DNA of 64,000 nucleotides from an uncultured euryarchaeote (GCA_937892945.1 CALBIL010000073.1:1470-65469); one strand, 5' to 3'; counted from the stretch's first letter, positions 36,372 to 56,740 are shown. A program made the numbers and translations. Notes: generated by a model from the letters alone, not told the origin.

Positions 36372-37406
36372 ATGAGCGAAGAATCCGATGCCACAGAAGA
36401 ATCAAAAGCAGATGTTTCTACAACAGATGAAGCAAAGAAAGAAGCTGAACAAGCACGCTTAGCAAAGACCTTTCGTTTGATTTCTGGAGAAGAAGTATTA
36501 TTGACAAAGCGTCCAAGCATGTTTGCTTTTTTGGGGATGTACATTCTTGGAACACTTGCGCTTGGAGTCCATCTCTTCTTTCACTTCGCTGAGAGTTTTG
36601 ACCCGGAGAATCCAGTTCTTAATCTCCTCGTTGCTTTTGCAGAACTTAGTGATGATCCAAAACTCCCATTCGGATTTGTATTCGTCATGCTCTTTTTAGC
36701 TTGGATGAATCGATTGATTAATGTTTCAACTTCAGGACGATGGGTTACAATTGCAATCATTTTTATGGCAAGCACGCCCCTCATAATCGGCATTGATGCT
36801 TTGGTCGGGCTCGTCATAGGGATCTTTTCTGATTCAGATGCTGGAAACTTCATCCCAATTGATTACAATTTCTTTATCTTTGGTTTAGTCTATTTTGCAA
36901 TATTCATGGGCATGACCTATCGATATCAGCGAAGTTTCCACTATGCAATCACTACAGACGCAGTTATTTTCGAACACAGTTTCTTGCTATCTCGTTCTCA
37001 CCGACGAATCCTCTTCGACCGTATCTCGGAAGTGATGGTTGAACGCTCACCTGTTGGGACTCTTCTTGGTTTTGCAACCGTCACAATCCTCACCGATTCA
37101 GGCGTTGGAATTGTCGAGGAGAGCACAGGCTCTAGAATGTCTGGTGCCATACCCGGGACAACTGAAAGAGAAGGCGACTCCACAGCTGAAAAGGCTGGCA
37201 AAGGCATCCTTCGTTCAATTATTGGACTCCTTACCTACCAACGAACAATTCGAGTGGTCCGTCCAGATCCAAAACACTGCATGTACAACATTCGTAACTG
37301 GGGAAAGGCAAAAGCACTTCTTAACGAAAAACATAAGGAACACAGTCAATCAAACCTTTTGCGAGACTTGAAGGACACAATCATCGCCACAAGCGATGGC
37401 AACTGA
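36372..37406 (+). CDS. membrane protein with bacterial PH-like (bPH_2 / YdbS-YdbT-type) domain
   Basis: It has an acidic N-terminus, about 4 TM helices, and then HYAITTDAVIFEHSFLLSRSHRRILFDRISEVMVERSPVGTLLGFATVTILTDSG, which follows the bPH_2 pattern. GGAGGAGGAG precedes the ATG. Confidence 0.6.
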   Translation: MSEESDATEESKADVSTTDEAKKEAEQARLAKTFRLISGEEVLLTKRPSMFAFLGMYILGTLALGVHLFFHFAESFDPENPVLNLLVAFAELSDDPKLPFGFVFVMLFLAWMNRLINVSTSGRWVTIAIIFMASTPLIIGIDALVGLVIGIFSDSDAGNFIPIDYNFFIFGLVYFAIFMGMTYRYQRSFHYAITTDAVIFEHSFLLSRSHRRILFDRISEVMVERSPVGTLLGFATVTILTDSGVGIVEESTGSRMSGAIPGTTEREGDSTAEKAGKGILRSIIGLLTYQRTIRVVRPDPKHCMYNIRNWGKAKALLNEKHKEHSQSNLLRDLKDTIIATSDGN

Positions 37407-40685: not shown

Positions 40686-41300
40686 TCACTCGGCTTCGAG
40701 TGAATTGACGACTGAAAGCAATTCTTCATCACCATCAGCGATTTCTTCTACAAAGTTTGAATCTTCATAGTAATATTTCATCTCATGACCTTCAAAGGGG
40801 TTGACTCCATCTTCTAACTGGCACAAGAGGCGCCAGCGAGGCGCCCATGAAAGGTGAACATACATTGGACCTGGAAGCAACAATAAGAACATGTAAAGAG
40901 ATGACGGCACCTCGAACATCCCCGTATGCGAAATCGTCAACAATCCAAATCCAACAAATGGCATTGGATAGAGGAGTATACGTGGAGGTGTCACTGGGAA
41001 GCGCTTTGAGAGGCTCACAATCACCAAAGAGATCATTCCCAAAAGAAGACAAGCAACCATAATCAAAGATGAATGAAAAAGCCAATTTGTAAACCAACTC
41101 TCTGAGGCTTGGGCAAATCGGTAAGGAAGTAACAATGCAAGTGATACTAAGAGTCCGTAAAATGCAGAGATATTCGACGGATGGGAAAGCCAAAGTGGCA
41201 ATTGAGTAAATCTCCGTGAAAGGGAAGTCCCCAAAAGCGTTTCACGCTCTTTTGGATTGAGCGCCTCAAGGTGACCTTGCCATCGCACTGAAGATTCCAC
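40686..41300 (-). CDS. hypothetical membrane protein with acidic C-terminus
   Basis: ORF 40686..41300(-) starts with GTG and has no early ATG. It has about 4 hydrophobic segments and an acidic tail (EEIADGDEELLSVVNSLEAE). Confidence 0.45.
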   Translation of the reverse strand: MESSVRWQGHLEALNPKERETLLGTSLSRRFTQLPLWLSHPSNISAFYGLLVSLALLLPYRFAQASESWFTNWLFHSSLIMVACLLLGMISLVIVSLSKRFPVTPPRILLYPMPFVGFGLLTISHTGMFEVPSSLYMFLLLLPGPMYVHLSWAPRWRLLCQLEDGVNPFEGHEMKYYYEDSNFVEEIADGDEELLSVVNSLEAE

Positions 41301-41354
41301 GTTCTGCGGTAGAGGTAGAGCCTTTCAATGTAAAGGCTATATTTTTCTCGAACA

Positions 41355-42008
41355 TCACTGTTCTCCACGCAGTTTTTGGAACAAACCCTCGGGTTCGATT
41401 TCAATGGAGTCCTGTTCTTCAAGCCACGAACGTTCAAGCAAGCCTGAATCGAGATGTTCTCGTTCACGAGCGGATTCAATCAAATCTTCATCTCCGTTTA
41501 CTGCGTCACGTAAAGCGATGGCTTGATTGATGAGCATCACATAACGCTTGAGCGTTGGATGGGTTTCATGTAAGGAACTGAAATGGCCGATTACCCCATA
41601 GGTCTCATCATCCCGAATGAGCAAGGAACCCCCAAGTAATTCATCAACTGTCAATCGTACTCTTCCTTCACCAACATTACCCCAAGTGCCGTCAGAAAAT
41701 TTCACCATGACAAGTGCAGCACCAAGTTCGAGGTCACCCATGAATGGATGATTCAGATTGACTGCTAATGGCACACGAAGTAAGGGTGAGTTCTGGTAGA
41801 TGAAAAACGCGCCAAAACTACCGAGGAAGAAAACCAGTAGAGTTGCGAAAAGACCGCCATTGAGAGTGAAAAGAAAAAAAAGTAATCCTGCAATGAAGAG
41901 TTCATACACTGCCAAAACACCAAGAAACTTGTAGAGGAATGGGCGCGCAACTTCCAAGGAATTGAAGCGACGCATTTCGACTGACAATTCACCTCGCACC
42001 TCGCCCAT
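41355..42008 (-). CDS. hypothetical membrane protein (2 TM helices plus a soluble C-terminal domain)
   Basis: ATG start. It has two long hydrophobic helices (FLGVLAVYELFIAGLLFFLFTL, LFATLLVFFLGSFGAFFIY) followed by a ~130-aa soluble region. I recognise no family. Confidence 0.5.
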   Translation of the reverse strand: MGEVRGELSVEMRRFNSLEVARPFLYKFLGVLAVYELFIAGLLFFLFTLNGGLFATLLVFFLGSFGAFFIYQNSPLLRVPLAVNLNHPFMGDLELGAALVMVKFSDGTWGNVGEGRVRLTVDELLGGSLLIRDDETYGVIGHFSSLHETHPTLKRYVMLINQAIALRDAVNGDEDLIESAREREHLDSGLLERSWLEEQDSIEIEPEGLFQKLRGEQ

Positions 42009-42154
42009 ATTTGACCATCGACTCGCTGTCTTTCAACTTCACGGTGATGAATGAAAGTAGGAAGTGAACATGCAGTCGGCTCAAGGTACACATTGGAGAA
42101 AGCATCATTCTATGTTGAAACCAGCCGCACCCTTCAAGAAGTGTCTCGTAAGCA

Positions 42155-42169
42155 TCACCCCGAAGGGGT
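42155..42169 (+). promoter_or_regulatory. 6-bp GC-rich hairpin (CACCCC-GAA-GGGGTG) overlapping the Shine-Dalgarno-like GGTGAGG of the 42178 gene
   Basis: Read directly: gcatCACCCCgaaGGGGTGaggaaaaATG. The 3' arm supplies the first four bases of the purine tract, 9 nt before the ATG. Confidence 0.3.
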
Positions 42170-42177
42170 GAGGAAAA

Positions 42178-44172
42178 ATGGTCGAACTGCCGCAAGGAGA
42201 TGTTACAGAAGTACGGCGTGGTGGACCTGAATCTCTGCGCATATTGTCGATGGATATGGCTCGATTAGGCACCTCTGGTTACATCAGAATCGAACGCCGA
42301 CCAAAGGAACAAATGCCTCGTATTGGACTCATTGTATTCCGTGAAGGCAAACCGATGCTAGCGTTGCATGAAGCAGATGCAATCACCATGTCTCTTGAAG
42401 CGCTACTGGATATTGAAAGTGATGCTGCACTCGTTGATGCTTTACTGGCCATTCACGAACTGCCTGTGACTGACCTCAACCAGATTCTCAACCTCCACCC
42501 CGAAGCACACTTCCAGATGGATGAACAAAAACAACAAACCGATGGAGACCATCAATGGTGGTCGAAATCGAAATTGAGAACAAGCAGTTGGAGGCGGCAA
42601 GAACGCTTACCCGAACTTGAGGTCGTGAACGAGGCCCCAGAAGCAATACGACAACGGACCAAGGCACTCATGCAACGCTTTGATGGCGTCGAGAAAATGT
42701 TGCGGCCAGGAGATGCATATTTCTTCGACTCAAAGAATCCTGCACCAATGTTTGACCTTGCTGGCCACTTAGCGGTCCATGGCCGCCCACTGTTTGTACT
42801 GGCACGGCATGACATCGAAGCACTCAACGTTGAACACAATATTCCGATCGCCTCCAGCTCATGGTTGTCACAAAATGGCGATGTACGCTCGACGGAACCT
42901 ACATTGGAGAATATCCGTCGAAAAATAGATGCGTTTCTTTGGGAGAATCTCCGGGCAGTTGTTGTCCTTGAAGGCGTTGAGTACCTTGCAAGTATCCACG
43001 GAGATGAACGCGTCGTCAATTTCCTACGCGACATTGTCGATGGAGTACGCCTTGAGGACCATTTGTTTTTGGCAACAGGAGATTTCAATGCATTCCCATT
43101 GACCACGCGTCAGCATTTGTCACGTTACATGACTGACCTTGAGCCATCTGTTCTTGAGCATTGGAACCTCGAACCAGAACTTATACTCGACCACCCACTT
43201 TGTGCACCAGCAAGCGAAGAAGAGCGCCAATGGATTGAGCAGCAATTACAACTGGCAATTTCACCTTCTGAATCCGGCACAATCCCGCCACAATCTACGG
43301 TCTTTGGAACGATGGAAGGCGGACTGGAAACTCCAGATTCTGAAGATGTACAAGCCGCAACAGAATCGCTGAGCACTGTTGCTCAAGAATGGGCGACTCC
43401 TGCAGCACACCATTCGGAAGGCATCGGAGTCGGCAATGGACGTGAGTCCATGGAACCGTTGAGCCAGACAAATCAAGTTGAGGCTACATACCACACAAAG
43501 GCCATTGTAAATCACAACGAATCGAATGAATCGTTGGAACCGGGCCTTGAACCAACTTCGGGCACGCCAACTTCCGAACCAATCGAATCAACGGACACGC
43601 CCCTCGCAGATGAAAAGCCCACCGTCATCCAACCGCGGAAAGCACAACGGATGTCACGGCGCAGTAAAGCAAATACTACCCGGACAATCCCTCGTAATCA
43701 ACAAGGTATTCAAGCCGCTGCGGCAAATGCCCATGATGCAAAAGAACTGATCGACATTGAAAAGGTGAACAGAACCTCGCCAAACTCCTTTTCGGATTCT
43801 CTGGAAGATTATGATGATCGTCAAAAGAAAGCAGTCGAAAGCATGCGTGTGAAATCTTCTGCCAAGAGTGATTCATCGCTCAATGACGCAACACGTCAAC
43901 GTATCAATCGTCAAGAACTCAATCTACCCGAAACTGCATTTGCAAAACGACCTCTTGAGGCAATAAAAGGACGCCAACCAATCAATACGCAGACGAGACT
44001 CACCCCCTTACTGACCCGACCAGGCGTAACACATTCATCGCAACCAAAAGAGGCTATACGTGAATCCGCTGCACGACAACAAACGGAATCTCCGATTGAA
44101 ATGAAACTCAGTGTTTGGGAAGTAGAAGACAGAGAACGTTTGAGAAGAGAATTGGAAGGTGCTAAGAAATGA
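42178..44172 (+). CDS. DUF835-type protein with DUF4388-like N-terminal module and a ~330-aa low-complexity tail
   Basis: 664 aa. The N-terminus reads SGYIRIERR....IGLIVFREGKPMLALHE...SLEALLDI. The central part (about nt 42700..43152) reads LRPGDAYFFDS...RPLFVLARHD...LRAVVVLEGVEYLASIHGDERVVNFLRDIVDGVRLEDHLFLATGDFNAF, following the DUF835 pattern (vvlldglEYLi..ngf..vl.fl..l.d). The remainder is S/T/E/Q/P-rich. Confidence 0.65.
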   Translation: MVELPQGDVTEVRRGGPESLRILSMDMARLGTSGYIRIERRPKEQMPRIGLIVFREGKPMLALHEADAITMSLEALLDIESDAALVDALLAIHELPVTDLNQILNLHPEAHFQMDEQKQQTDGDHQWWSKSKLRTSSWRRQERLPELEVVNEAPEAIRQRTKALMQRFDGVEKMLRPGDAYFFDSKNPAPMFDLAGHLAVHGRPLFVLARHDIEALNVEHNIPIASSSWLSQNGDVRSTEPTLENIRRKIDAFLWENLRAVVVLEGVEYLASIHGDERVVNFLRDIVDGVRLEDHLFLATGDFNAFPLTTRQHLSRYMTDLEPSVLEHWNLEPELILDHPLCAPASEEERQWIEQQLQLAISPSESGTIPPQSTVFGTMEGGLETPDSEDVQAATESLSTVAQEWATPAAHHSEGIGVGNGRESMEPLSQTNQVEATYHTKAIVNHNESNESLEPGLEPTSGTPTSEPIESTDTPLADEKPTVIQPRKAQRMSRRSKANTTRTIPRNQQGIQAAAANAHDAKELIDIEKVNRTSPNSFSDSLEDYDDRQKKAVESMRVKSSAKSDSSLNDATRQRINRQELNLPETAFAKRPLEAIKGRQPINTQTRLTPLLTRPGVTHSSQPKEAIRESAARQQTESPIEMKLSVWEVEDRERLRRELEGAKK

Positions 44173-46202
44173 ACGCCCGACGTGAAAAACTGGCTTTGGC
44201 ATTGAAGTTGGCAAAGCAGCAACTCAATGAAACCGGTACTGGGCTCCACAAAGTCACTGTTCAATCGAACAAAAACTCACAACCCTCTCTCTCGAAAATG
44301 AATCGGTTAATTGGCAAACAGGACGTTCAAGATCAACGCCAAGGAACACTTCTGCAACGGACCGGTATTGTCGAGCGGCCGACATTCGATGTCGTTGCGG
44401 ACAAAGTACTCGGGAAAGAAAGTAAGCGCAGAAGGCCCGCACTTGACCTTACCACAAATGGAGATTCTCTCGCAGATATCGCTGCTCGGCGCATACGTTC
44501 TTTGCGACAGCGAACCTATGAGCAAATTGAACAAGGTACTGAAGAAACTGAAGACGGTTATTTTGGAATGGAAGAGGATGGACGCCCAGTTTGGGAACGT
44601 ATTCTCGACGACCAACGAGGACGTTTGACAGTGACCCTACCACCCGAATTAGCGCCTGTTGATTCAAATTCACCGTTCCACCATGAGGTCGTGGTCCCCA
44701 CCGAAGGGGTTTGGCCCCCACGTTTGCGACCAGAAATCCGCATGAGTTTCAAGCAATGGTTCATCACAGATGAAAACTTTCGCGCTACCCAAGCTGCGGA
44801 AGCTGTTGTTGATTCACCAGGAGGTACACTCAATCCATTGATGTTCGTTGGCCCTTCTGAAACTGGACGCTCGCATCTTCTTCATGCAACTGCACAGGCA
44901 GTCCTGCGTCGTCAAGAAGGGAATGTATACCTCCTTTCAACTGCTGATTTATCCGGCCTTGAACGCTTACCCGATGGTTGGCAAGATACACTGGTGAATG
45001 CAAGGTTACTTGCGATTGACGACCTTCATGAGCATGCGCAAAAACCAGAACTGGCCCATGAACTTGGAACGATGCTTGATTATGCACTCAACATGGGTGT
45101 TCATGTCCTTCTCTCTTCCAATTCGGAACCAGACGATTGGCCAGCATCGCGCTTGTGGGAGTTAACTCGTCATGCTGCTTCAGTTCACCTTGAAACTCCA
45201 AAATCTGCAAGCATGGTCTTGTATGCTCGGAACTTAGCTCAAAAGAAGGGCTTCATGATGGATGATGGACAACTCACAAGCATTGTATTACAAGATACAA
45301 TTGGATGGCGAGCGACCAAAGCAAACTTCGATTTAGTCGCCCTCGCCCTTCAGTCTGGCCAGAGCGTTCTCGACGGTGATGATGTGACTGCATTGCTTTC
45401 AAACCAAATGAATCTCCGAGAACAGATGGTCCCTGATGTGCGTGAAAATGTCGAAGAGATTGCAGCCCGTTTGGTTACTTCTGCAGTTGATACCATTTAC
45501 AGTGACACCGTACATGGAGGTATTGACCTGTATTCTGAACTTCCTGAAATTGGAGACGACTTGTATCAACCTCCTGAAATTGATACCCAAGCACTCACCG
45601 AAGATTCCGATGCACGCCATGCCGCTTATCTCAAAATAGCGCTCGAAGATACTGAACCTGCTGCGTCTTCGGTTCTCGCCTTACATGAGCGGGAAGACCA
45701 CCTTATTACGCGTAAAGGCCACATTGAGGAGCGAGACCATGGGCTTGCTGCTGACCTACTCACAGAGTTAGATCAAGCATTTGATTCACAAATACATTCT
45801 TTTGAAACTGATATGCGTCAAAGTTCCCTTCAACTCGCTCAGATTGAAGCAAAATTGGTCAACATGGCTGACAGAACACCAGAGGCATCACTGGATGAAT
45901 TGATTTTGATTGCCGATGAATTACGGGCACTGGAAGAGAACCTCATCGAAGTTGACCCTGAGCACGAGCCTTGGCCAAAGATGGAATCGGAAACCCCTTC
46001 AAAGAAAAAGCGTAAAGTTGGTCGCCGAAAATCAACTCCACCTGTGGAACCTTTGGAAAGTCATGAACCTAAAGGTGAATGGAACATTGATGCCAAAGAT
46101 GTCGACATGTCCGACTTACTTGAAGCTGGAGAAAAACCTCGAAAAATACGACTCGGACGAATCAATTCCCACGAAAAAATCCTCCGAGGTGAGGAGAAAT
46201 GA
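44169..46202 (+). CDS. DnaA/Hda-like AAA+ domain protein with degenerate Walker A, flanked by low-complexity/coiled-coil arms
   Basis: 677 aa. The ATG overlaps the upstream stop (ATGA). Residues ~192-400 track DnaA domain III: SFKQWFITDENFRATQAAEAVVDSPGGTLNPLMFVGPSETGRSHLLHA, LLAIDDLH, and ELGTMLDYALNMGVHVLLSSNSEP...RL.ELTRHAASVHLETP. The Walker A reads GPSETGRS (K to R, T to S). There is no DnaA domain IV. Confidence 0.7.
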   Translation: MNARREKLALALKLAKQQLNETGTGLHKVTVQSNKNSQPSLSKMNRLIGKQDVQDQRQGTLLQRTGIVERPTFDVVADKVLGKESKRRRPALDLTTNGDSLADIAARRIRSLRQRTYEQIEQGTEETEDGYFGMEEDGRPVWERILDDQRGRLTVTLPPELAPVDSNSPFHHEVVVPTEGVWPPRLRPEIRMSFKQWFITDENFRATQAAEAVVDSPGGTLNPLMFVGPSETGRSHLLHATAQAVLRRQEGNVYLLSTADLSGLERLPDGWQDTLVNARLLAIDDLHEHAQKPELAHELGTMLDYALNMGVHVLLSSNSEPDDWPASRLWELTRHAASVHLETPKSASMVLYARNLAQKKGFMMDDGQLTSIVLQDTIGWRATKANFDLVALALQSGQSVLDGDDVTALLSNQMNLREQMVPDVRENVEEIAARLVTSAVDTIYSDTVHGGIDLYSELPEIGDDLYQPPEIDTQALTEDSDARHAAYLKIALEDTEPAASSVLALHEREDHLITRKGHIEERDHGLAADLLTELDQAFDSQIHSFETDMRQSSLQLAQIEAKLVNMADRTPEASLDELILIADELRALEENLIEVDPEHEPWPKMESETPSKKKRKVGRRKSTPPVEPLESHEPKGEWNIDAKDVDMSDLLEAGEKPRKIRLGRINSHEKILRGEEK

Positions 46203-46666
46203 GAGCCCCATGGTGGATGAAAGGCGTCGCCTTTTCATGCCAATCAAGTTGCGGTCGATGTTGTGATGAACCCGGTGGGATTGTCTATCTCTCCATTGCA
46301 GATGCTGAACGCATCTCTGCAGAACATGAAATGAATGTCGATGACTGGCTTGAACGTGATTGCCGTCAAACGCTTGATGGGCGTTATGTGTTGAACAGTC
46401 GCCCAGAAGATGGAATCTGTATTTATTTAGATGAGAAGAAGCAATGTTCGATTTATGCAGTTCGTCCGCAGCAATGTGCAGCATTCCCATGGTGGAGTGA
46501 AAACTTAGCAACTGACAGAGCGTGGAATAAAGTGAAAGAAGCATGTCCAGGAATAGATGCAGATGATGCAATTCTGATCGATGGAGAAACAGTTCGAATC
46601 CATGTATTTGCTGACCGTGAGTCAACCAAAGGATTCCGTTCGTGGCCGCCTCACAATAAAAGGTAG
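46199..46666 (+). CDS. YkgJ/UPF0153-family Cys-cluster (zinc- or iron-chelating) protein
   Basis: 155 aa. The ATG overlaps the upstream stop (ATGA) and is preceded by GAGGAG. The motifs FSCQSSCGRCC and GICIYLDEKKQCSIYAVRPQQCAAFPW match the CxxCxxCC-domain family. Confidence 0.8.
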   Translation: MRAPWWMKGVAFSCQSSCGRCCDEPGGIVYLSIADAERISAEHEMNVDDWLERDCRQTLDGRYVLNSRPEDGICIYLDEKKQCSIYAVRPQQCAAFPWWSENLATDRAWNKVKEACPGIDADDAILIDGETVRIHVFADRESTKGFRSWPPHNKR

Positions 46667-55096: not shown

Positions 55097-55247
55097 TTGA
55101 TTCATCCACTGAAATCAACTCATCCCAAGACATCATGTCAGTCATTCAGTTTGTGCTCAATCTCGAATTTGGATGAGAATAAAATGAAAGCATAAGAATC
55201 CATCAACTTGGGATTCTCGAATCACTCGCTCAAAGCGAATGATAAGG

Positions 55248-55320
55248 AGCCTGCGGAGGGACTCGAACCCCCGGCCTTCGGATTACAAATCCGATGCACT
55301 ACCAGCTATGCTACACAGGC
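55248..55320 (-). tRNA. tRNA-Thr (anticodon TGT)
   Basis: Folded by hand from the reverse complement GCCTGTGTAGCATAGCTGGTAGTGCATCGGATTTGTAATCCGAAGGCCGGGGGTTCGAGTCCCTCCGCAGGC(T). It has a 7-bp acceptor stem (one G-U), the anticodon stem TCGGA/TCCGA with loop TTTGTAA, and a T arm with GTTCGAGTC. There is no intron and no encoded CCA. Confidence 0.9.
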
Positions 55321-55453
55321 GACGAACTGTCCCACACACTTACCCTTGATGAATGAAACGGATAGAATGCAAGGGAATTCTGTGATTCAAAGCCGCGAAA
55401 AAAGGAACGAATCAAAGAGACAAGTCAAAGAACAGTGCCGTATTCGGAGAGGC

Positions 55454-56740
55454 ATGAACCCTGATGCTGGTGCTGGATTACTCAACTCCTATGCACAGAC
55501 AAAGGTCGGAAATGATACCATTTTTGGGTGGTGGGGGCGTTATCAAAAAGCCATCGCAGAAGGTATTGATGCAGTCAATGGAACGATTGGTGCATTACTC
55601 GAAGACGATGGCTCTCTCGCCATTAACCAAGTCGTCGATGAAGCCATTCGAATTGCACCGGCTGTTGAAATCGCCGCCTATGCACCTTTGAAGGGACTCC
55701 CTGCATTTCTTGATTTAGCAAAGACATTAGCGCTTGGAGAACATCGAGAACCCCTCGCCGAACTCGGAATTTCGATGACGGCCACTGCCACACCGGGTGG
55801 CTCGGGTGCACTGTACCTTGCTGCAGCAAATTTCGCTAATAGAGGAGATAAAGTATTGCTCCGTGACCGATATTGGGGACCCTACAAAGGTTTTTTGTCC
55901 GGTTGTGACCTTGGTATCGAAACGTATCCACTCTTGCCTTCAACGCCAAATGAAGTGCATCCATTTGTCGATGTTGAAGGGTTTCGAAGCCAACTCGCCT
56001 CACTCTGTTCTTCACAGGACAAAGTGATGATTTGGTTAAACGATCCTGCACATAATCCAACCGGCCTCTCATTGACTCCCGAAGGGCGTATGGCTTTTTT
56101 AGAAGCGGTCATGGAAAGTGCCTCTTCCAACGAGCATGTCGGGCACACATTGCTTATCGATTCTGCATATCATTTGTATGCAGAAGACCCACATGGCTGG
56201 GGACAAACAGTACGTGAAACAATTGAAGAAGGCTGGCCTTGGACCGAAAACTTACTGATTACATTCGCTGTATCTCTCTCGAAATCACATACAATCTATG
56301 GGTTACGTACCGGTGCTTTGGTGAGCATTCATCCTGACGCAGAAGTCATTGAAAAGATTGGAACAGTGATGGGCGTCACTGGCCGGCAAACTTGGTCTGC
56401 AGCACCAAGAATTGCACAGTACACCATCAGTGAAATGCATTCATCTTCCGAAGGTGGAGATGCGTGGGGCAAAGAACGGGACCGATTGAAGTCTCTCCTT
56501 GTAACCCGTCGAGACCTCTTCAAGGAATGGTGTGAAAAACTCAATGTCCCAATCAATCCAACGCATGATGGGTTTTTTGCTTGGCTCGAACATGACGACC
56601 CTGAAACAGTTGCTGAAAAATGTGCGCAACAGAATGTGTTTCTCGTACCCCTAACTGGTGGCGTACGAATCGGATTATGTGCAGTTCCTTTGGGACACAT
56701 ACCTCGTGTCGCCGAGGCCTTGGCTCAGGCACTTAAGTGA
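55454..56740 (+). CDS. class I aminotransferase (aspartate/aromatic AspC-TyrB-like)
   Basis: ORF 55208..56740 overlaps tRNA-Thr at its 5' end. The internal ATG at 55454 is preceded by GGAGAGG. It reads VNGTIGALLEDDGS...YAPLKGLP.F......L....ATATPGGSGALYLAA...YWGPY...NDPAHNPTG....SLSKSHTIYGLRTGAL, which is an AspC-like layout. Confidence 0.85.
   Translation: MNPDAGAGLLNSYAQTKVGNDTIFGWWGRYQKAIAEGIDAVNGTIGALLEDDGSLAINQVVDEAIRIAPAVEIAAYAPLKGLPAFLDLAKTLALGEHREPLAELGISMTATATPGGSGALYLAAANFANRGDKVLLRDRYWGPYKGFLSGCDLGIETYPLLPSTPNEVHPFVDVEGFRSQLASLCSSQDKVMIWLNDPAHNPTGLSLTPEGRMAFLEAVMESASSNEHVGHTLLIDSAYHLYAEDPHGWGQTVRETIEEGWPWTENLLITFAVSLSKSHTIYGLRTGALVSIHPDAEVIEKIGTVMGVTGRQTWSAAPRIAQYTISEMHSSSEGGDAWGKERDRLKSLLVTRRDLFKEWCEKLNVPINPTHDGFFAWLEHDDPETVAEKCAQQNVFLVPLTGGVRIGLCAVPLGHIPRVAEALAQALK

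What the first reader, a model, noticed from the sequence alone, without database searches (positions are those of the whole stretch)
42178..46666. Translationally coupled cassette of three uncharacterised genes: DUF835-type protein, DnaA/Hda-like AAA+ protein, YkgJ Cys-cluster protein
Three same-strand ORFs are chained by ATGA start/stop overlaps (44169-44172 and 46199-46202), so they form one translational unit. Gene 1 (664 aa) has a DUF4388-like N-terminal module, a DUF835-like core and a ~330-aa low-complexity tail. Gene 2 (677 aa) has a DnaA-family AAA+ core between ~190-aa and ~270-aa low-complexity or coiled-coil arms. Gene 3 is a CxxxCxxCC metal-cluster protein. I know of no described pathway that combines these families. 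None of them is a canonical archaeal replication (Orc1/Cdc6, MCM), division or defence component. Two small membrane proteins of unknown function lie divergently just upstream (40686-42008) and may belong to the same neighbourhood. This is my best candidate for an undescribed system in the window.
Basis: partly seen in the sequence, partly recalled or inferred. Interest (0 to 1): 0.8.

Follow-up and report, generated by a model that had tools for sequence, protein, structure and literature searches.

The report
Poseidoniales-specific KaiC-like/DnaA-like gene pair
Marine Group II archaea all carry a tightly coupled, undescribed gene pair: an inactivated KaiC-like protein and a bacterial DnaA/Hda-type ATPase, with a cysteine-cluster protein and two membrane proteins beside them; the cassette is real and conserved, but its function is unknown.

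Summary
Three same-strand ORFs (42178-44172, 44169-46202, 46199-46666) overlap by ATGA. All three pass Pfam thresholds: DUF835, Bac_DnaA and CxxCxxCC.

The window is core chromosome of a Poseidoniales (Marine Group II) archaeon. It is not a mobile or defence island.

- **Genes 1 and 2.** In about 90 loci (68 species genomes plus metagenome contigs, protein identity down to ~20-25%), the two genes are always adjacent on one strand. They overlap or nearly abut, and a Shine-Dalgarno sequence for gene 2 is encoded in gene 1's last codons.
- **Gene 3.** It is always adjacent but inverted in divergent lineages.
- **Upstream membrane genes.** The two divergent genes persist across rearrangement breakpoints.

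- DUF4388 is not supported (best E 0.13).
- Gene 2's arms are conserved and helical, not low-complexity.
- Its "invariant" GEEE tail doubles as gene 3's ribosome-binding site.

New findings:
- The DUF835 core matches archaellum protein ArlH/FlaH (E 2e-4), so it is KaiC-like but has no P-loop.
- The Walker A lysine is arginine in about half the family.
- A conserved leader hairpin occludes gene 1's ribosome-binding site.
- A tail motif weakly resembles a PCNA-binding peptide.

No publication describes the pair. I read it as an obligate ATP-switch complex, probably linked to DNA or the replisome.

The parts
40686..41300 (-). TMb: 204-aa multi-pass membrane protein of no known family, with its own TTSAA box at -28 (leaderless)
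   Evidence: ORF. No Pfam/NCBIfam hit in the window copy or 5 diverse orthologs. Present upstream in nearly all loci. Box.
41355..42008 (-). TMa: 217-aa protein with two TM helices, a conserved soluble domain and an 'ESARERE..GLLER.W' helix. It is divergent from gene 1.
   Evidence: It stays adjacent to gene 1 where the aminotransferase is inverted or replaced (L046-54, L006-8). It diverges at the same rate as genes 1 and 2.
42029..42037 (-). TATA-like TTGAAAGA box about 28 nt before the TMa start (generic promoter box of this genome)
   Evidence: TTSAA at about -28 recurs upstream of many window genes. The block is conserved in close relatives.
42125..42140 (+). Conserved box CCGCACCCTTCAAGAA: a locus-specific CCGCAC at the BRE position followed by a TATA-like TTCAAGAA, 38-53 nt before the gene 1 start
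   Evidence: Alignment of 14 loci and all loci. It occurs exactly once in the 64-kb window.
42156..42170 (+). Leader hairpin CACCCC-GAA-GGGGTG, which pairs an anti-SD-like segment with the SD GGGGTGAGG (42165-42173)
   Evidence: dG is -11.5 kcal/mol. Equivalent SD-occluding stems with different sequences and registers occur in at least five clades, and are absent in the L061-L077 clade.
42178..44172 (+). Gene 1 (664 aa): conserved N-terminal alpha/beta domain (aa 1-115), DUF835/inactivated KaiC-like core (aa ~170-345), variable linker (aa ~400-480), basic patch (aa 486-497) and conserved tail motifs
42685..43212 (+). DUF835 core of gene 1: RecA/KaiC-like fold without a P-loop
   Evidence: Pfam DUF835 in 11 of 11 relatives, best E 1e-18. 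The core profile matches ArlH/FlaH 4yds at E 2.1e-4. Classed as 'iKaiC' in PMC5847659.
44154..44161 (+). SD (GGAAGGTG) for gene 2, embedded in gene 1's last codons, followed by the ATGA overlap at 44169-44172
   Evidence: A GGAGG/GGTG-type SD sits at this position in nearly all loci.
44169..46202 (+). Gene 2 (677 aa): family-specific helical N-arm (1-190), DnaA/Hda-type AAA+ core plus lid (191-410), helical region with a coiled-coil hairpin (522-595), basic patch (612-621), LxSHxP..W..DLL motif (629-651) and a GEE(E/K) end
44850..44873 (+). Walker A of gene 2 (GPSETGRS), with arginine in place of the canonical lysine
   Evidence: Family tally: GR[ST] 45, GK[ST] 39, GCS 1, GTT 1 of 86.
45018..45023 (+). 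Walker B aspartates D284-D285 of gene 2
   Evidence: Invariant in 50 Poseidoniaceae sequences. Mostly kept in the wider family.
45732..45953 (+). Predicted long helical hairpin (coiled coil) of gene 2
   Evidence: AlphaFold2 helices 522-569 and 575-595, pLDDT ~85-88. Only generic coiled-coil matches in the PDB.
46002..46121 (+). Gene 2 tail: K/R patch (KKKRKVGRRK) followed by the conserved motif h[DE][SE][YFWH]xP..(E/D)W.ID...V...DLL, a candidate PCNA-interacting (PIP-like) peptide
   Evidence: motif in 66 of 86. The only PDB match of the tail profile is TIP, the Thermococcales inhibitor of PCNA, at E 0.27-0.41, which is not significant.
46186..46196 (+). SD (GAGGTGAGGAG) for gene 3. It is formed by the G-E-E codons of gene 2's C-terminus and followed by the ATGA overlap at 46199-46202.
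   Evidence: Nearly all loci with a -4 overlap end gene 2 with GG(T/G)GA(A/G)GA(A/G)GAATGA; exceptions are L020 (GEEV), L070 (TEEEE) and L083 (PEATA). Uncoupled loci lack GEEE.
46199..46666 (+). Gene 3 (155 aa): YkgJ-type CxxCxxCC protein. C14-x3-C18-x2-C21-C22 is at 46238-46264, and there are further cysteines downstream.
   Evidence: Always adjacent to gene 2, and on the opposite strand in L009-L013 and L086-L089.

Best explanation
This is a lineage-specific, chromosomal, housekeeping operon of Poseidoniales. Its invariant core is a two-protein complex.

Shown.
- Genes 1 and 2 are made from one mRNA at coupled rates.
- Gene 2 carries a DnaA/Hda-clade AAA+ module with no DnaA DNA-binding domain IV.
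- Gene 1 carries a RecA/KaiC-fold domain that has lost its P-loop.

Inferred mechanism.
- The AAA+ module acts as a nucleotide-binding assembly switch and not as a motor. The Walker A lysine is replaced by arginine in about half the family, while Walker B and the sensor-II-like WR are mostly kept.
- The inactive KaiC-like domain of gene 1 docks on this module and modulates its oligomeric state, as KaiC-like ArlH does with the ArlI ATPase.
- The long tails of both proteins, with K/R patches and conserved short motifs, recruit the complex to its target.
- All characterised members of the DnaA/Hda/DnaC/IstB clade work on DNA or the replisome. I therefore take the target to be the chromosome or replisome. 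The complex would be a replication-cycle or nucleoid regulator, not an initiator.
- The two co-conserved membrane proteins would act as anchor or input.
- The Cys-cluster protein would be a loosely attached metal or redox accessory.
- Output is set at the level of translation by a leader hairpin that occludes the ribosome-binding site of gene 1.
For: Obligate pairing.
- Genes 1 and 2 are adjacent on the same strand in every locus that covers both (83 loci tabulated, more), down to ~20-25% protein identity.
- Junctions are -4, -1, -11, -14 or +2 nt in nearly all, and the SD lies in the upstream gene's codons.

Gene 2 is DnaA/Hda-type.
- Pfam Bac_DnaA 43 bits; relatives up to E 4e-18.
- PDB profile hit to DnaA domain III, 1.8e-12.
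- Foldseek top hits are DnaA domain III (2.9e-12) and Hda (1e-10), with no Orc1/Cdc6 in the top 50.

Gene 1 is KaiC-like.
- DUF835 in 11 of 11 relatives.
- ArlH/FlaH 4yds at E 2.1e-4.
- Called 'iKaiC' in PMC5847659.

Other points.
- Walker A variation.
- Conserved arms and SLiMs.
- Basic patches in both tails.
- Membrane genes retained across breakpoints.
- Core-genome context with no defence or viral signal.
- Leader hairpin and locus-specific box.
Against: - No physical interaction, nucleotide binding or DNA binding was tested.
- The whole region is collinear within the order, so adjacency alone is weak.
- A mirror-tree test did not separate genes 1 and 2 from an unrelated fast-evolving neighbour.
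- The arginine finger is ambiguous. R328 aligns with the first Arg of DnaA box VII, and the finger position is Leu (alignment).
- The AlphaFold models are only moderately confident outside the cores: pTM 0.30-0.37.
- DUF835 domains elsewhere are output domains of response regulators. This points to signalling as much as to DNA.
- The DNA or replisome target rests on a family prior and on basic patches. These patches could equally bind membranes.
Confidence: 0.4

Rival explanations
1. Clamp-tethered, Hda-like replication regulator. Gene 2 binds PCNA through its C-terminal basic patch and LDS[YF]xP motif. Like bacterial Hda on the beta clamp, it acts on an initiator-clade ATPase (Orc1/Cdc6) or another replisome factor. 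Gene 1 is its adaptor.
For: - The AAA+ core is as close to Hda as to DnaA: NCBIfam 47.5 versus 48 bits, and Foldseek Hda 3sc3 at 1e-10.
- The only PDB hit of the tail profile is TIP, the Thermococcales inhibitor of PCNA. It aligns basic patch to basic patch and SLDSFLPEE to (A/S)LDS[YFH]xPEGE.
- TIP binds PCNA through a non-canonical PIP motif followed by an amphipathic helix (PMC6204406).
- The motif is present in 66 of 86 family members.
Against: - The TIP match has E 0.27-0.41, which is expected by chance about once in three searches.
- The motif lacks the PIP glutamine and the second aromatic residue. In the window copy it is LESHEP.
- 20 of 86 members lack it.
- The primary TIP paper could not be read, so the identity of TIP's PIP residues is my inference.
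- Hda's clamp motif is N-terminal.
- The arginine finger is not clearly conserved.
Confidence: 0.12
2. Membrane-associated signalling hub unrelated to DNA. The two membrane proteins sense a signal. Gene 1 (possible PATAN-like N-domain plus iKaiC output domain) and the AAA+ switch transduce it to cell-envelope, polarity or metabolic targets. The basic patches bind acidic lipids.
For: - DUF835 is an output domain of archaeal response regulators, and KaiC-like proteins are proposed signalling hubs (PMC5847659).
- There are weak whole-domain hints to DUF2226/DUF4388 for the N-domain.
- The divergent membrane genes are co-conserved and evolve at a matching rate.
- Gene 1 is under translational control through the leader hairpin.
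- L013 has a KaiC-like ATPase inserted next to the block.
Against: - No sensor, kinase or receiver domain occurs in any of the five proteins.
- The PATAN similarity is below any threshold.
- Initiator-clade AAA+ modules are not known in signalling.
- The membrane genes have their own promoters.
Confidence: 0.25
3. There is no system. These are unrelated hypothetical genes that sit together only because this genome region is frozen in synteny across the order.
For: - About 18 kb around the cassette is collinear in relatives at 36-42% identity.
- Citrate synthase and GDPD are as constantly adjacent as gene 3.
- The mirror-tree test is uninformative.
Against: - Overlapping stop/start codons with an embedded SD are maintained for genes 1 and 2 in every lineage, at ~20-25% identity, while neighbours are inverted, inserted or replaced around the block.
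- Both families have the same narrow phyletic range.
Confidence: 0.05
4. A domesticated mobile-element or anti-virus defence module (DnaA-like or IstB-like ATPases are common in archaeal viruses, plasmids and IS21).
For: - 'DnaA-like' ATPases in archaea are typically virus-associated (PMC4158269).
- There are weak IstB and mad8 similarities.
Against: - The genes sit at a fixed chromosomal position among housekeeping genes in every genome sampled.
- There is no integrase, repeats or tRNA flank.
- PADLOC has no significant hit.
- There are no relatives in IMG/VR or in phage records beyond generic DnaA cores.
- GC content is unremarkable.
Confidence: 0.02

Closest known systems
Bacterial DnaA domain III and Hda (Bac_DnaA, PF00308; initiator clade of AAA+)
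   Same: - The sequence and predicted fold of aa ~191-410 of gene 2 match, including the pre-Walker 'F..F...N..A' segment, NPL...G.G(K/R)(S/T)HL, Walker B DD and the lid with a WR sensor-II-like motif.
- Like Hda, it lacks a DNA-binding domain IV.
   Different: - It is an archaeal, single-copy core gene of 677 aa, with a 190-aa family-specific N-arm and a 270-aa C-arm containing a coiled-coil hairpin.
- It scores far below the DnaA and Hda equivalog cut-offs: 48 versus 344 bits, and 47.5 versus 195.
- The Walker A Lys is Arg in about half the family.
- There is no N-terminal clamp-binding motif, and the arginine finger is ambiguous.
- It is always partnered with a DUF835 protein.
ArlH/FlaH with ArlI (KaiC-like protein docking on the archaellum motor ATPase)
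   Same: - The gene 1 core matches ArlH (4yds, E 2.1e-4) across the Walker-B strand region.
- The logic is the same: a KaiC-fold protein is encoded next to, and presumably regulates, an oligomeric P-loop ATPase.
   Different: - Gene 1 has no P-loop, whereas ArlH binds ATP.
- The partner is an initiator-clade AAA+, not a secretion-type ATPase.
- There are no archaellum genes nearby.
- Gene 1 has an extra N-domain and a 320-aa tail.
- The interaction itself is untested.
DUF835 ('iKaiC') output domains of archaeal response regulators (REC-DUF835; Galperin et al. 2018)
   Same: The Pfam family is the same, and the domain is likewise an inactivated KaiC-like domain.
   Different: - There is no receiver, PAS or transmembrane sensor domain.
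- A distinct conserved N-terminal domain of unknown family replaces them.
- It is confined to Poseidoniales and coupled to a DnaA-like gene.
TIP, Thermococcales inhibitor of PCNA (5da7)
   Same: The short segment has the same layout: a K/R-rich stretch followed by (S/A)LDS(F/Y)xPE(E/G).
   Different: - The similarity is not statistically significant (E 0.27-0.41).
- TIP is a 64-aa stand-alone protein of Thermococcales.
- The gene 2 motif is absent in about a quarter of the family.
YkgJ / UPF0153 CxxCxxCC proteins (PF03692)
   Same: Gene 3 has the family's C-x3-C-x2-CC cluster and downstream cysteines, and it passes the Pfam threshold.
   Different: - The family has no established function.
- The link to the pair is only positional, and its orientation is not conserved.

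Membership tests
Bac_DnaA AAA+ domain family (PF00308) | Profile match above Pfam's gathering score | tested here: met
   43.1 bits against a cut-off of 23. Distant relatives score 28-66 bits.
Bac_DnaA AAA+ domain family (PF00308) | Canonical Walker A GxxGxGK[ST] | tested here: not met
   The window has GPSETGRS. Across the family: GR[ST] 45, GK[ST] 39, GCS 1, GTT 1 of 86. Most of the most divergent lineages have Lys, so Arg is probably derived (polarity is my inference).
Bac_DnaA AAA+ domain family (PF00308) | Walker B hhhhDD and AAA+ alpha/beta core plus lid fold | tested here: met
   LLAIDD, with D284/D285 invariant in 50 sequences. AF2 core pLDDT is 80-90. Foldseek hit to DnaA domain III: 2.9e-12, TM-score 0.76 normalised to the target.
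Bac_DnaA AAA+ domain family (PF00308) | Box VII arginine finger | tested here: inconclusive
   In the HMM alignment to B. subtilis DnaA, R328 pairs with the first Arg of DRLRSRF and the finger position is Leu. A conserved R/K lies two residues later.
DnaA proper (replication initiator; TIGR00362) | Equivalog score and C-terminal domain IV helix-turn-helix (DnaA-box binding) | tested here: not met
   48 bits against a cut-off of 343.9, matching only model positions 107-288. There is no Bac_DnaA_C hit. The C-arm is a coiled coil.
Hda (TIGR03420) | Equivalog score, ~230-aa size and N-terminal beta-clamp-binding motif | tested here: not met
   47.5 bits against a cut-off of 194.8. The protein is 677 aa. 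The organism is an archaeon with PCNA, not a beta clamp. No N-terminal QL[SP]LPL-type motif is visible in the alignment.
DUF835 (PF05763), 'iKaiC' | Profile match above the gathering score | tested here: met
   36.4 bits against 33.1 in the window copy. 11 of 11 diverse relatives match, best E 1.1e-18.
DUF835 (PF05763), 'iKaiC' | RecA/KaiC-like fold lacking the P-loop | tested here: met
   The core profile hits KaiC-like ArlH/FlaH 4yds at E 2.1e-4. The predicted beta-alpha-beta core has pLDDT ~75. The segment where Walker A would lie reads DSKNPAPM. Foldseek of the whole model found nothing significant.
DUF4388 / PATAN domain (PF14332) | Profile match to the N-terminal 115 aa | tested here: not met
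   No hit at E<=5 in 11 full-length relatives. With the isolated domain, 1 of 16 hits at E 0.13, and DUF2226 hits 2 of 16 at E 0.094 over the whole domain. There is no PDB hit.
YkgJ / CxxCxxCC (PF03692) | Profile match above the gathering score, with the Cys cluster | tested here: met
   44.6 bits against 23. C14-x3-C18-x2-C21-C22 is present. Sources name the orthologs 'YkgJ family cysteine cluster protein'.
PIP-box PCNA-interacting peptides | Qxx[LIM]xx[FY][FYW] or a demonstrated non-canonical variant that docks in the PCNA pocket | tested here: inconclusive
   The tail motif h[DE][SE][YFWH]xP is in 66 of 86 members. It lacks the Q and the second aromatic residue. It resembles TIP only at E 0.27-0.41. 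Docking to PCNA could not be tested with these tools.
Known anti-phage defence systems (PADLOC-DB) | Significant match of any component | tested here: not met
   The only hit is mad8 at E 0.0011, with no stretch passing on its own, for the P-loop of gene 2.

The most novel reading that the evidence does not exclude
An archaeal counterpart of bacterial Hda/RIDA. A horizontally acquired DnaA/Hda-type AAA+ protein is tethered to PCNA through a TIP-like non-canonical PIP motif. It works as an obligate complex with an inactivated KaiC-like adaptor. The complex controls the nucleotide state or availability of the Orc1/Cdc6 initiator, or another replisome ATPase, once per cell cycle in Marine Group II archaea.
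Probability: 0.1. Interest if true: 0.85.

Novelty: new variant of a known kind. Interest (0 to 1): 0.55.

Why it matters
Poseidoniales are among the most abundant archaea in the surface ocean and have never been cultured. Their cell biology can therefore only be read from conserved genes.

- This cassette appears to be a fixed part of their core genome. It was found at the same chromosomal position in every lineage sampled.
- It couples a bacterial-type DnaA/Hda ATPase module to a KaiC-like pseudo-ATPase, which is unusual in an archaeal chromosome.
- If the pair acts on the replisome or nucleoid, it would be a lineage-specific layer of cell-cycle control grafted onto the Orc1/MCM machinery.
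- If it is a signalling hub, it would give the DUF835/iKaiC domain, which has no known function, its first defined partner.
- Either way, it gives concrete proteins and motifs to test: K versus R Walker A variants, the tail motif with PCNA, and the leader hairpin.

Tried and rejected
1. **Foldseek of the whole gene 1 model against the PDB.** No match below E 0.08, and all have TM <0.13 relative to the query.
2. **DUF4388/PATAN assignment.** Not recoverable by hmmscan on 11 full-length or 16 isolated N-domains. The PDB profile search was empty.
3. **Mirror-tree co-evolution test.** The partial correlation for genes 1 and 2 is 0.68, but the control gene GDPD gives 0.65-0.72. I rejected it as uninformative because it reflects rate class.
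4. **Defence or mobile-element origin.** PADLOC, IMG/VR and phage searches were all negative.
5. **Bacterial promoter/terminator scan.** At chance level and not applicable to archaea. I replaced it with a direct comparison of upstream regions.
6. **Broad alignments (A6, A7) for the genome scan.** The scan used narrower patterns, so the 68 genomes are a lower bound.
7. **PDB searches with gene 2's arms.** The N-arm search was empty, and the C-arm gave only generic coiled-coil hits.
8. **The primary TIP-PCNA paper.** It could not be retrieved.
9. **Fixed-column covariation test of the leader hairpin.** Abandoned because the stem register differs between clades.
10. **Gene 2 as a substitute initiator.** Rejected. 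MGII has Cdc6/Orc1 and gene 2 lacks any DNA-binding domain IV.


Full report
**1. Observation**

The window carries three same-strand ORFs: 42178-44172 (664 aa), 44169-46202 (677 aa) and 46199-46666 (155 aa). The ATGA overlaps are at 44169-44172 and 46199-46202.

All three proteins pass Pfam gathering thresholds:
- DUF835: 36.4 bits (cut-off 33.1), aa 197-306.
- Bac_DnaA: 43.1 bits (cut-off 23), aa 191-322.
- CxxCxxCC: 44.6 bits (cut-off 23).

NCBIfam places gene 2 equally close to DnaA (48 bits) and Hda (47.5 bits). Both scores are far below the equivalog cut-offs.

A strong SD (GGGGTGAGG) precedes gene 1. GGAAGGTG precedes gene 2 and GAGGTGAGGAG precedes gene 3, and both lie inside the upstream gene's last codons.

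**2. Organism and context**

Homologs of all three proteins come from Poseidoniales (Marine Group II) metagenome-assembled genomes. Among them is the original MG-II assembly, CM001443.1.

The neighbours are housekeeping genes:
- tRNA-guanine transglycosylase
- ABC transporters
- TruA
- CTP-dependent riboflavin kinase
- an aminotransferase
- citrate synthase
- GDPD
- PAP2
- TatC
- FolD

GC content is flat across the window. PADLOC gives no significant hit. IMG/VR and phage records hold no relatives beyond generic DnaA cores. This is core chromosome, not an island.

**3. Synteny, and what it does and does not show**

About 18 kb around the cassette is collinear in relatives whose gene 1 and gene 2 proteins are only 36-42% identical. 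Adjacency within the order is therefore weak evidence on its own.

I tabulated 83 loci with HMMs and added six more from the most divergent relatives. These relatives were found by an exhaustive profile search.

- **Genes 1 and 2.** They are adjacent and co-directional in every locus that covers both. The junction is -4, -1, -11, -14 or +2 nt in nearly all. The exceptions are short same-strand gaps in the distant L009-L012 loci and three MAGs with a frameshifted gene 1.
- **Gene 3.** It is always next to gene 2. It lies on the opposite strand in L009-L013 and L086-L089.
- **TMa and TMb.** They stay directly upstream and divergent even where the aminotransferase is inverted (L046-L054) or replaced by GrpE and other genes (L006-L008).
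- **Insertions.** They occur between TMa and gene 1 (TerB-like, DUF309) and between gene 3 and citrate synthase (L006, L013, L081, L082, L088).

The unit that resists rearrangement is therefore TMb-TMa | g1-g2 | g3. Genes 1 and 2 are the invariant core.

A mirror-tree test added nothing. The control gene GDPD correlated as strongly as genes 1 and 2 did with each other.

**4. Translational coupling is under selection**

Nearly all loci with a -4 gene 2/gene 3 overlap end gene 2 with GG(T/G)GA(A/G)GA(A/G)GAATGA, which reads G-E-E-E-stop (exceptions: L020, L070, L083). Loci where gene 3 is inverted or spaced lack GEEE.

The 'invariant GEEE tail' seen in the protein alignment is therefore largely a dual-coding ribosome-binding site. 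Gene 1's last codons likewise encode GGAGG/GGTG in nearly all loci.

**5. Gene 2**

The family is conserved along its whole length apart from aa 21-40. The arms are not low-complexity.

- **AlphaFold2 model.** It gives a confident AAA+ core plus lid (aa ~200-410, pLDDT 80-90). It also gives a long helical hairpin (522-595, pLDDT ~87).
- **Foldseek.** The top hits are DnaA domain III (8bv3, 2.9e-12) and Hda (3sc3, 1e-10). No Orc1/Cdc6 appears in the top 50.
- **PDB profile search.** It agrees: DnaA at 1.8e-12 and DnaC at 0.008.
- **No domain IV.** The protein has no DnaA DNA-binding domain.
- **Walker A.** It is GRS in the window. Across 86 distinct family members it is GR[ST] in 45, GK[ST] in 39, GCS in 1 and GTT in 1.
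- **Polarity of the change.** Most of the most divergent lineages have Lys, so Arg is probably derived.
- **Walker B.** DD is mostly retained.
- **Arginine finger.** It is ambiguous (alignment).

Family-specific elements outside the core:
- an N-terminal helix
- RPTFD
- G.P.W
- WP
- GGIEL
- DDY.PPE
- the coiled coil
- a K/R patch
- h[DE][SE][YFWH]xP..(E/D)W.ID...V...DLL
- a terminal hLxP..EE

The family has 61 representatives below E 1e-30 among 1.84 billion proteins. After these, only generic AAA+ matches follow. Every named member is a 'hypothetical protein' or is auto-annotated as DnaA.

**6. Gene 1**

Its parts are:
- a highly conserved alpha/beta N-domain (aa 1-115)
- a WWS...W.R..RLPE linker motif
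- the DUF835 core (aa ~170-345)
- a truly variable linker (aa ~400-480)
- a basic patch (GPR.A.R.KRRKK)
- conserved tail motifs (RESA.R.Q and a terminal helix)

The DUF835 core profile matches archaellum protein ArlH/FlaH (4yds) at E 2.1e-4, across the Walker-B strand region. This independently supports the 'iKaiC' label of Galperin et al. (PMC5847659). There is no P-loop at the expected position.

The N-domain gives no DUF4388 hit in full-length scans. With the isolated domain there are only sub-threshold hits: DUF2226 at E 0.094 over the whole domain, and DUF4388 at E 0.13 in 1 of 16.

**7. Gene 3 and the membrane proteins**

Gene 3 is a typical YkgJ-type Cys-cluster protein. It evolves about 1.5 times as fast as citrate synthase. 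Genes 1, 2 and TMa evolve 2.6-2.8 times as fast.

TMa has two TM helices, a conserved soluble domain and an ESARERE..GLLER.W helix. TMb is a multi-pass membrane protein. Neither matches any family in ten diverse orthologs.

**8. Regulatory region**

TTSAA(R) at about -28 from the start codon recurs upstream of many window genes, including TMa and TMb. It is the generic TATA-like box, and most genes appear leaderless.

Gene 1 is different. Its box lies at -45 and is preceded by a locus-specific CCGCAC. The 16-mer CCGCACCCTTCAAGAA occurs once in 64 kb and is conserved across the family.

The implied ~17-20 nt leader folds into CACCCC-GAA-GGGGTG (42156-42170, -11.5 kcal/mol), which pairs the SD with an anti-SD-like sequence. 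At least five clades maintain such a stem with different sequences or registers, and one clade lacks it. Translation of the operon's first gene is probably attenuated or regulated.

**9. Mechanism**

Shown:
- an invariant, translationally coupled gene pair
- a DnaA/Hda-type AAA+ module without a DNA-binding domain
- a KaiC-fold pseudo-ATPase
- conserved tails with basic patches and short motifs
- associated membrane proteins
- restriction to one lineage

Inferred:
- The two proteins form a stoichiometric complex.
- The AAA+ module works as a nucleotide-dependent assembly switch, since the K-to-R replacement is tolerated.
- The iKaiC domain docks on it, with ArlH-ArlI as the precedent.
- The target is DNA or the replisome, because every characterised member of this AAA+ clade acts there.

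My confidence in this package is about 0.4. My confidence that genes 1 and 2 are a functional unit is about 0.85.

**10. The PCNA lead**

The tail profile's only PDB match is TIP, the Thermococcales inhibitor of PCNA (E 0.27 and 0.41). TIP's K/R stretch plus SLDSFLPEE aligns with gene 2's K/R patch plus (A/S)LDS[YFH]xPEGE.

A review describes TIP as a non-canonical PIP motif followed by an amphipathic helix (PMC6204406). That SLDSFL is this motif is my inference, because the primary paper was not available.

The match is not significant and the motif is missing in 20 of 86 members. I rate a clamp-tethered, Hda-like role at about 0.1. It is directly testable.

**11. Comparison and novelty**

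- Gene 2 belongs to the Bac_DnaA AAA+ domain family. It is neither DnaA (no domain IV) nor Hda (size, score and motif all differ).
- Gene 1 belongs to DUF835 with a new architecture.
- Gene 3 is an ordinary YkgJ protein.

No paper in the searchable library mentions the combination. Poseidoniales-specific families have been catalogued only in aggregate (PMC9258230).

I class this as a new variant of known kinds of parts in an undescribed combination. Whether it is a categorically new system depends on its function.

**12. Verdict**

The cassette is real, conserved and undescribed. Interest is 0.55.

Noticed in passing
window 42125-42173: Gene 1 has a locus-specific conserved box (CCGCACCCTTCAAGAA, unique in the window). 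It also has a leader hairpin, CACCCC-GAA-GGGGTG, that pairs the SD with an anti-SD-like sequence. Several clades keep an SD-occluding stem with different sequence or register, and one clade lacks it.
   Followed up: partly
window-wide, e.g. upstream of 9011, 17897, 19148, 19988(-), 40686(-), 41355(-), 53276(-), 57211: TTSAA(R) centred about 28 nt before the start codon recurs upstream of many genes. This suggests a generic TATA-like box and mostly leaderless mRNAs. A minority of genes (5509, 30649, 37472, 42178) have the box at -42 to -45 and an SD.
   Followed up: partly
window 46186-46202, and gene 2 3' ends in all loci: The 'invariant' C-terminal GEEE of gene 2 is a dual-coding SD for gene 3. 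It disappears wherever gene 3 is inverted or spaced. This is a caution against reading terminal residue conservation as a protein motif.
   Followed up: yes
proteins P0379, P0391, P0393, P0400 and others: About 650-aa proteins with two tandem Bac_DnaA ATPase domains (plus IstB-like matches) were the next-best hits to the gene 2 profile. They are a separate double-DnaA family of unknown origin.
   Followed up: partly
L013:10648-12126: In one divergent lineage, a 183-aa unknown gene and a 240-aa KaiC-like ATPase (PF06745/DUF7125) are inserted between gene 3 and citrate synthase. The two upstream membrane genes are replaced by PCMT, HEAT and M61-peptidase genes. In this lineage gene 1 is 1100 aa and gene 2 is 817 aa.
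   Followed up: no
L009:5003-5434; L084:5814-6215; L088:10270-10875: Small lineage-specific insertions lie inside the block: a TerB-like 143-aa gene or a DUF309 133-aa gene between TMa and gene 1, and a 201-aa unknown next to the inverted gene 3.
   Followed up: no
L042, L050, L061 (gene 1): Gene 1 is interrupted, apparently by a frameshift or premature stop, in three MAGs. Gene 2 remains intact. This is probably assembly error, but pseudogenisation is not excluded.
   Followed up: no
window 55208-55320: tRNA-Thr (55246-55320, minus strand) overlaps the 5' end of the listed TTG-start ORF 55208-56740. The true start of that aminotransferase gene is probably further downstream.
   Followed up: no
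window 36372-37406 and 41355-42008: A bPH_2 (bacterial PH domain) membrane protein lies 5 kb upstream and is syntenic in relatives. TMa has the same 'two TM helices plus small soluble domain' layout as bPH proteins but no profile match.
   Followed up: no
protein P0001: A 792-aa variant is 100% identical to gene 2 over 68% of the query, on a 14-kb contig. It is either an alternative N- or C-terminal extension or an assembly or gene-calling chimera.
   Followed up: no
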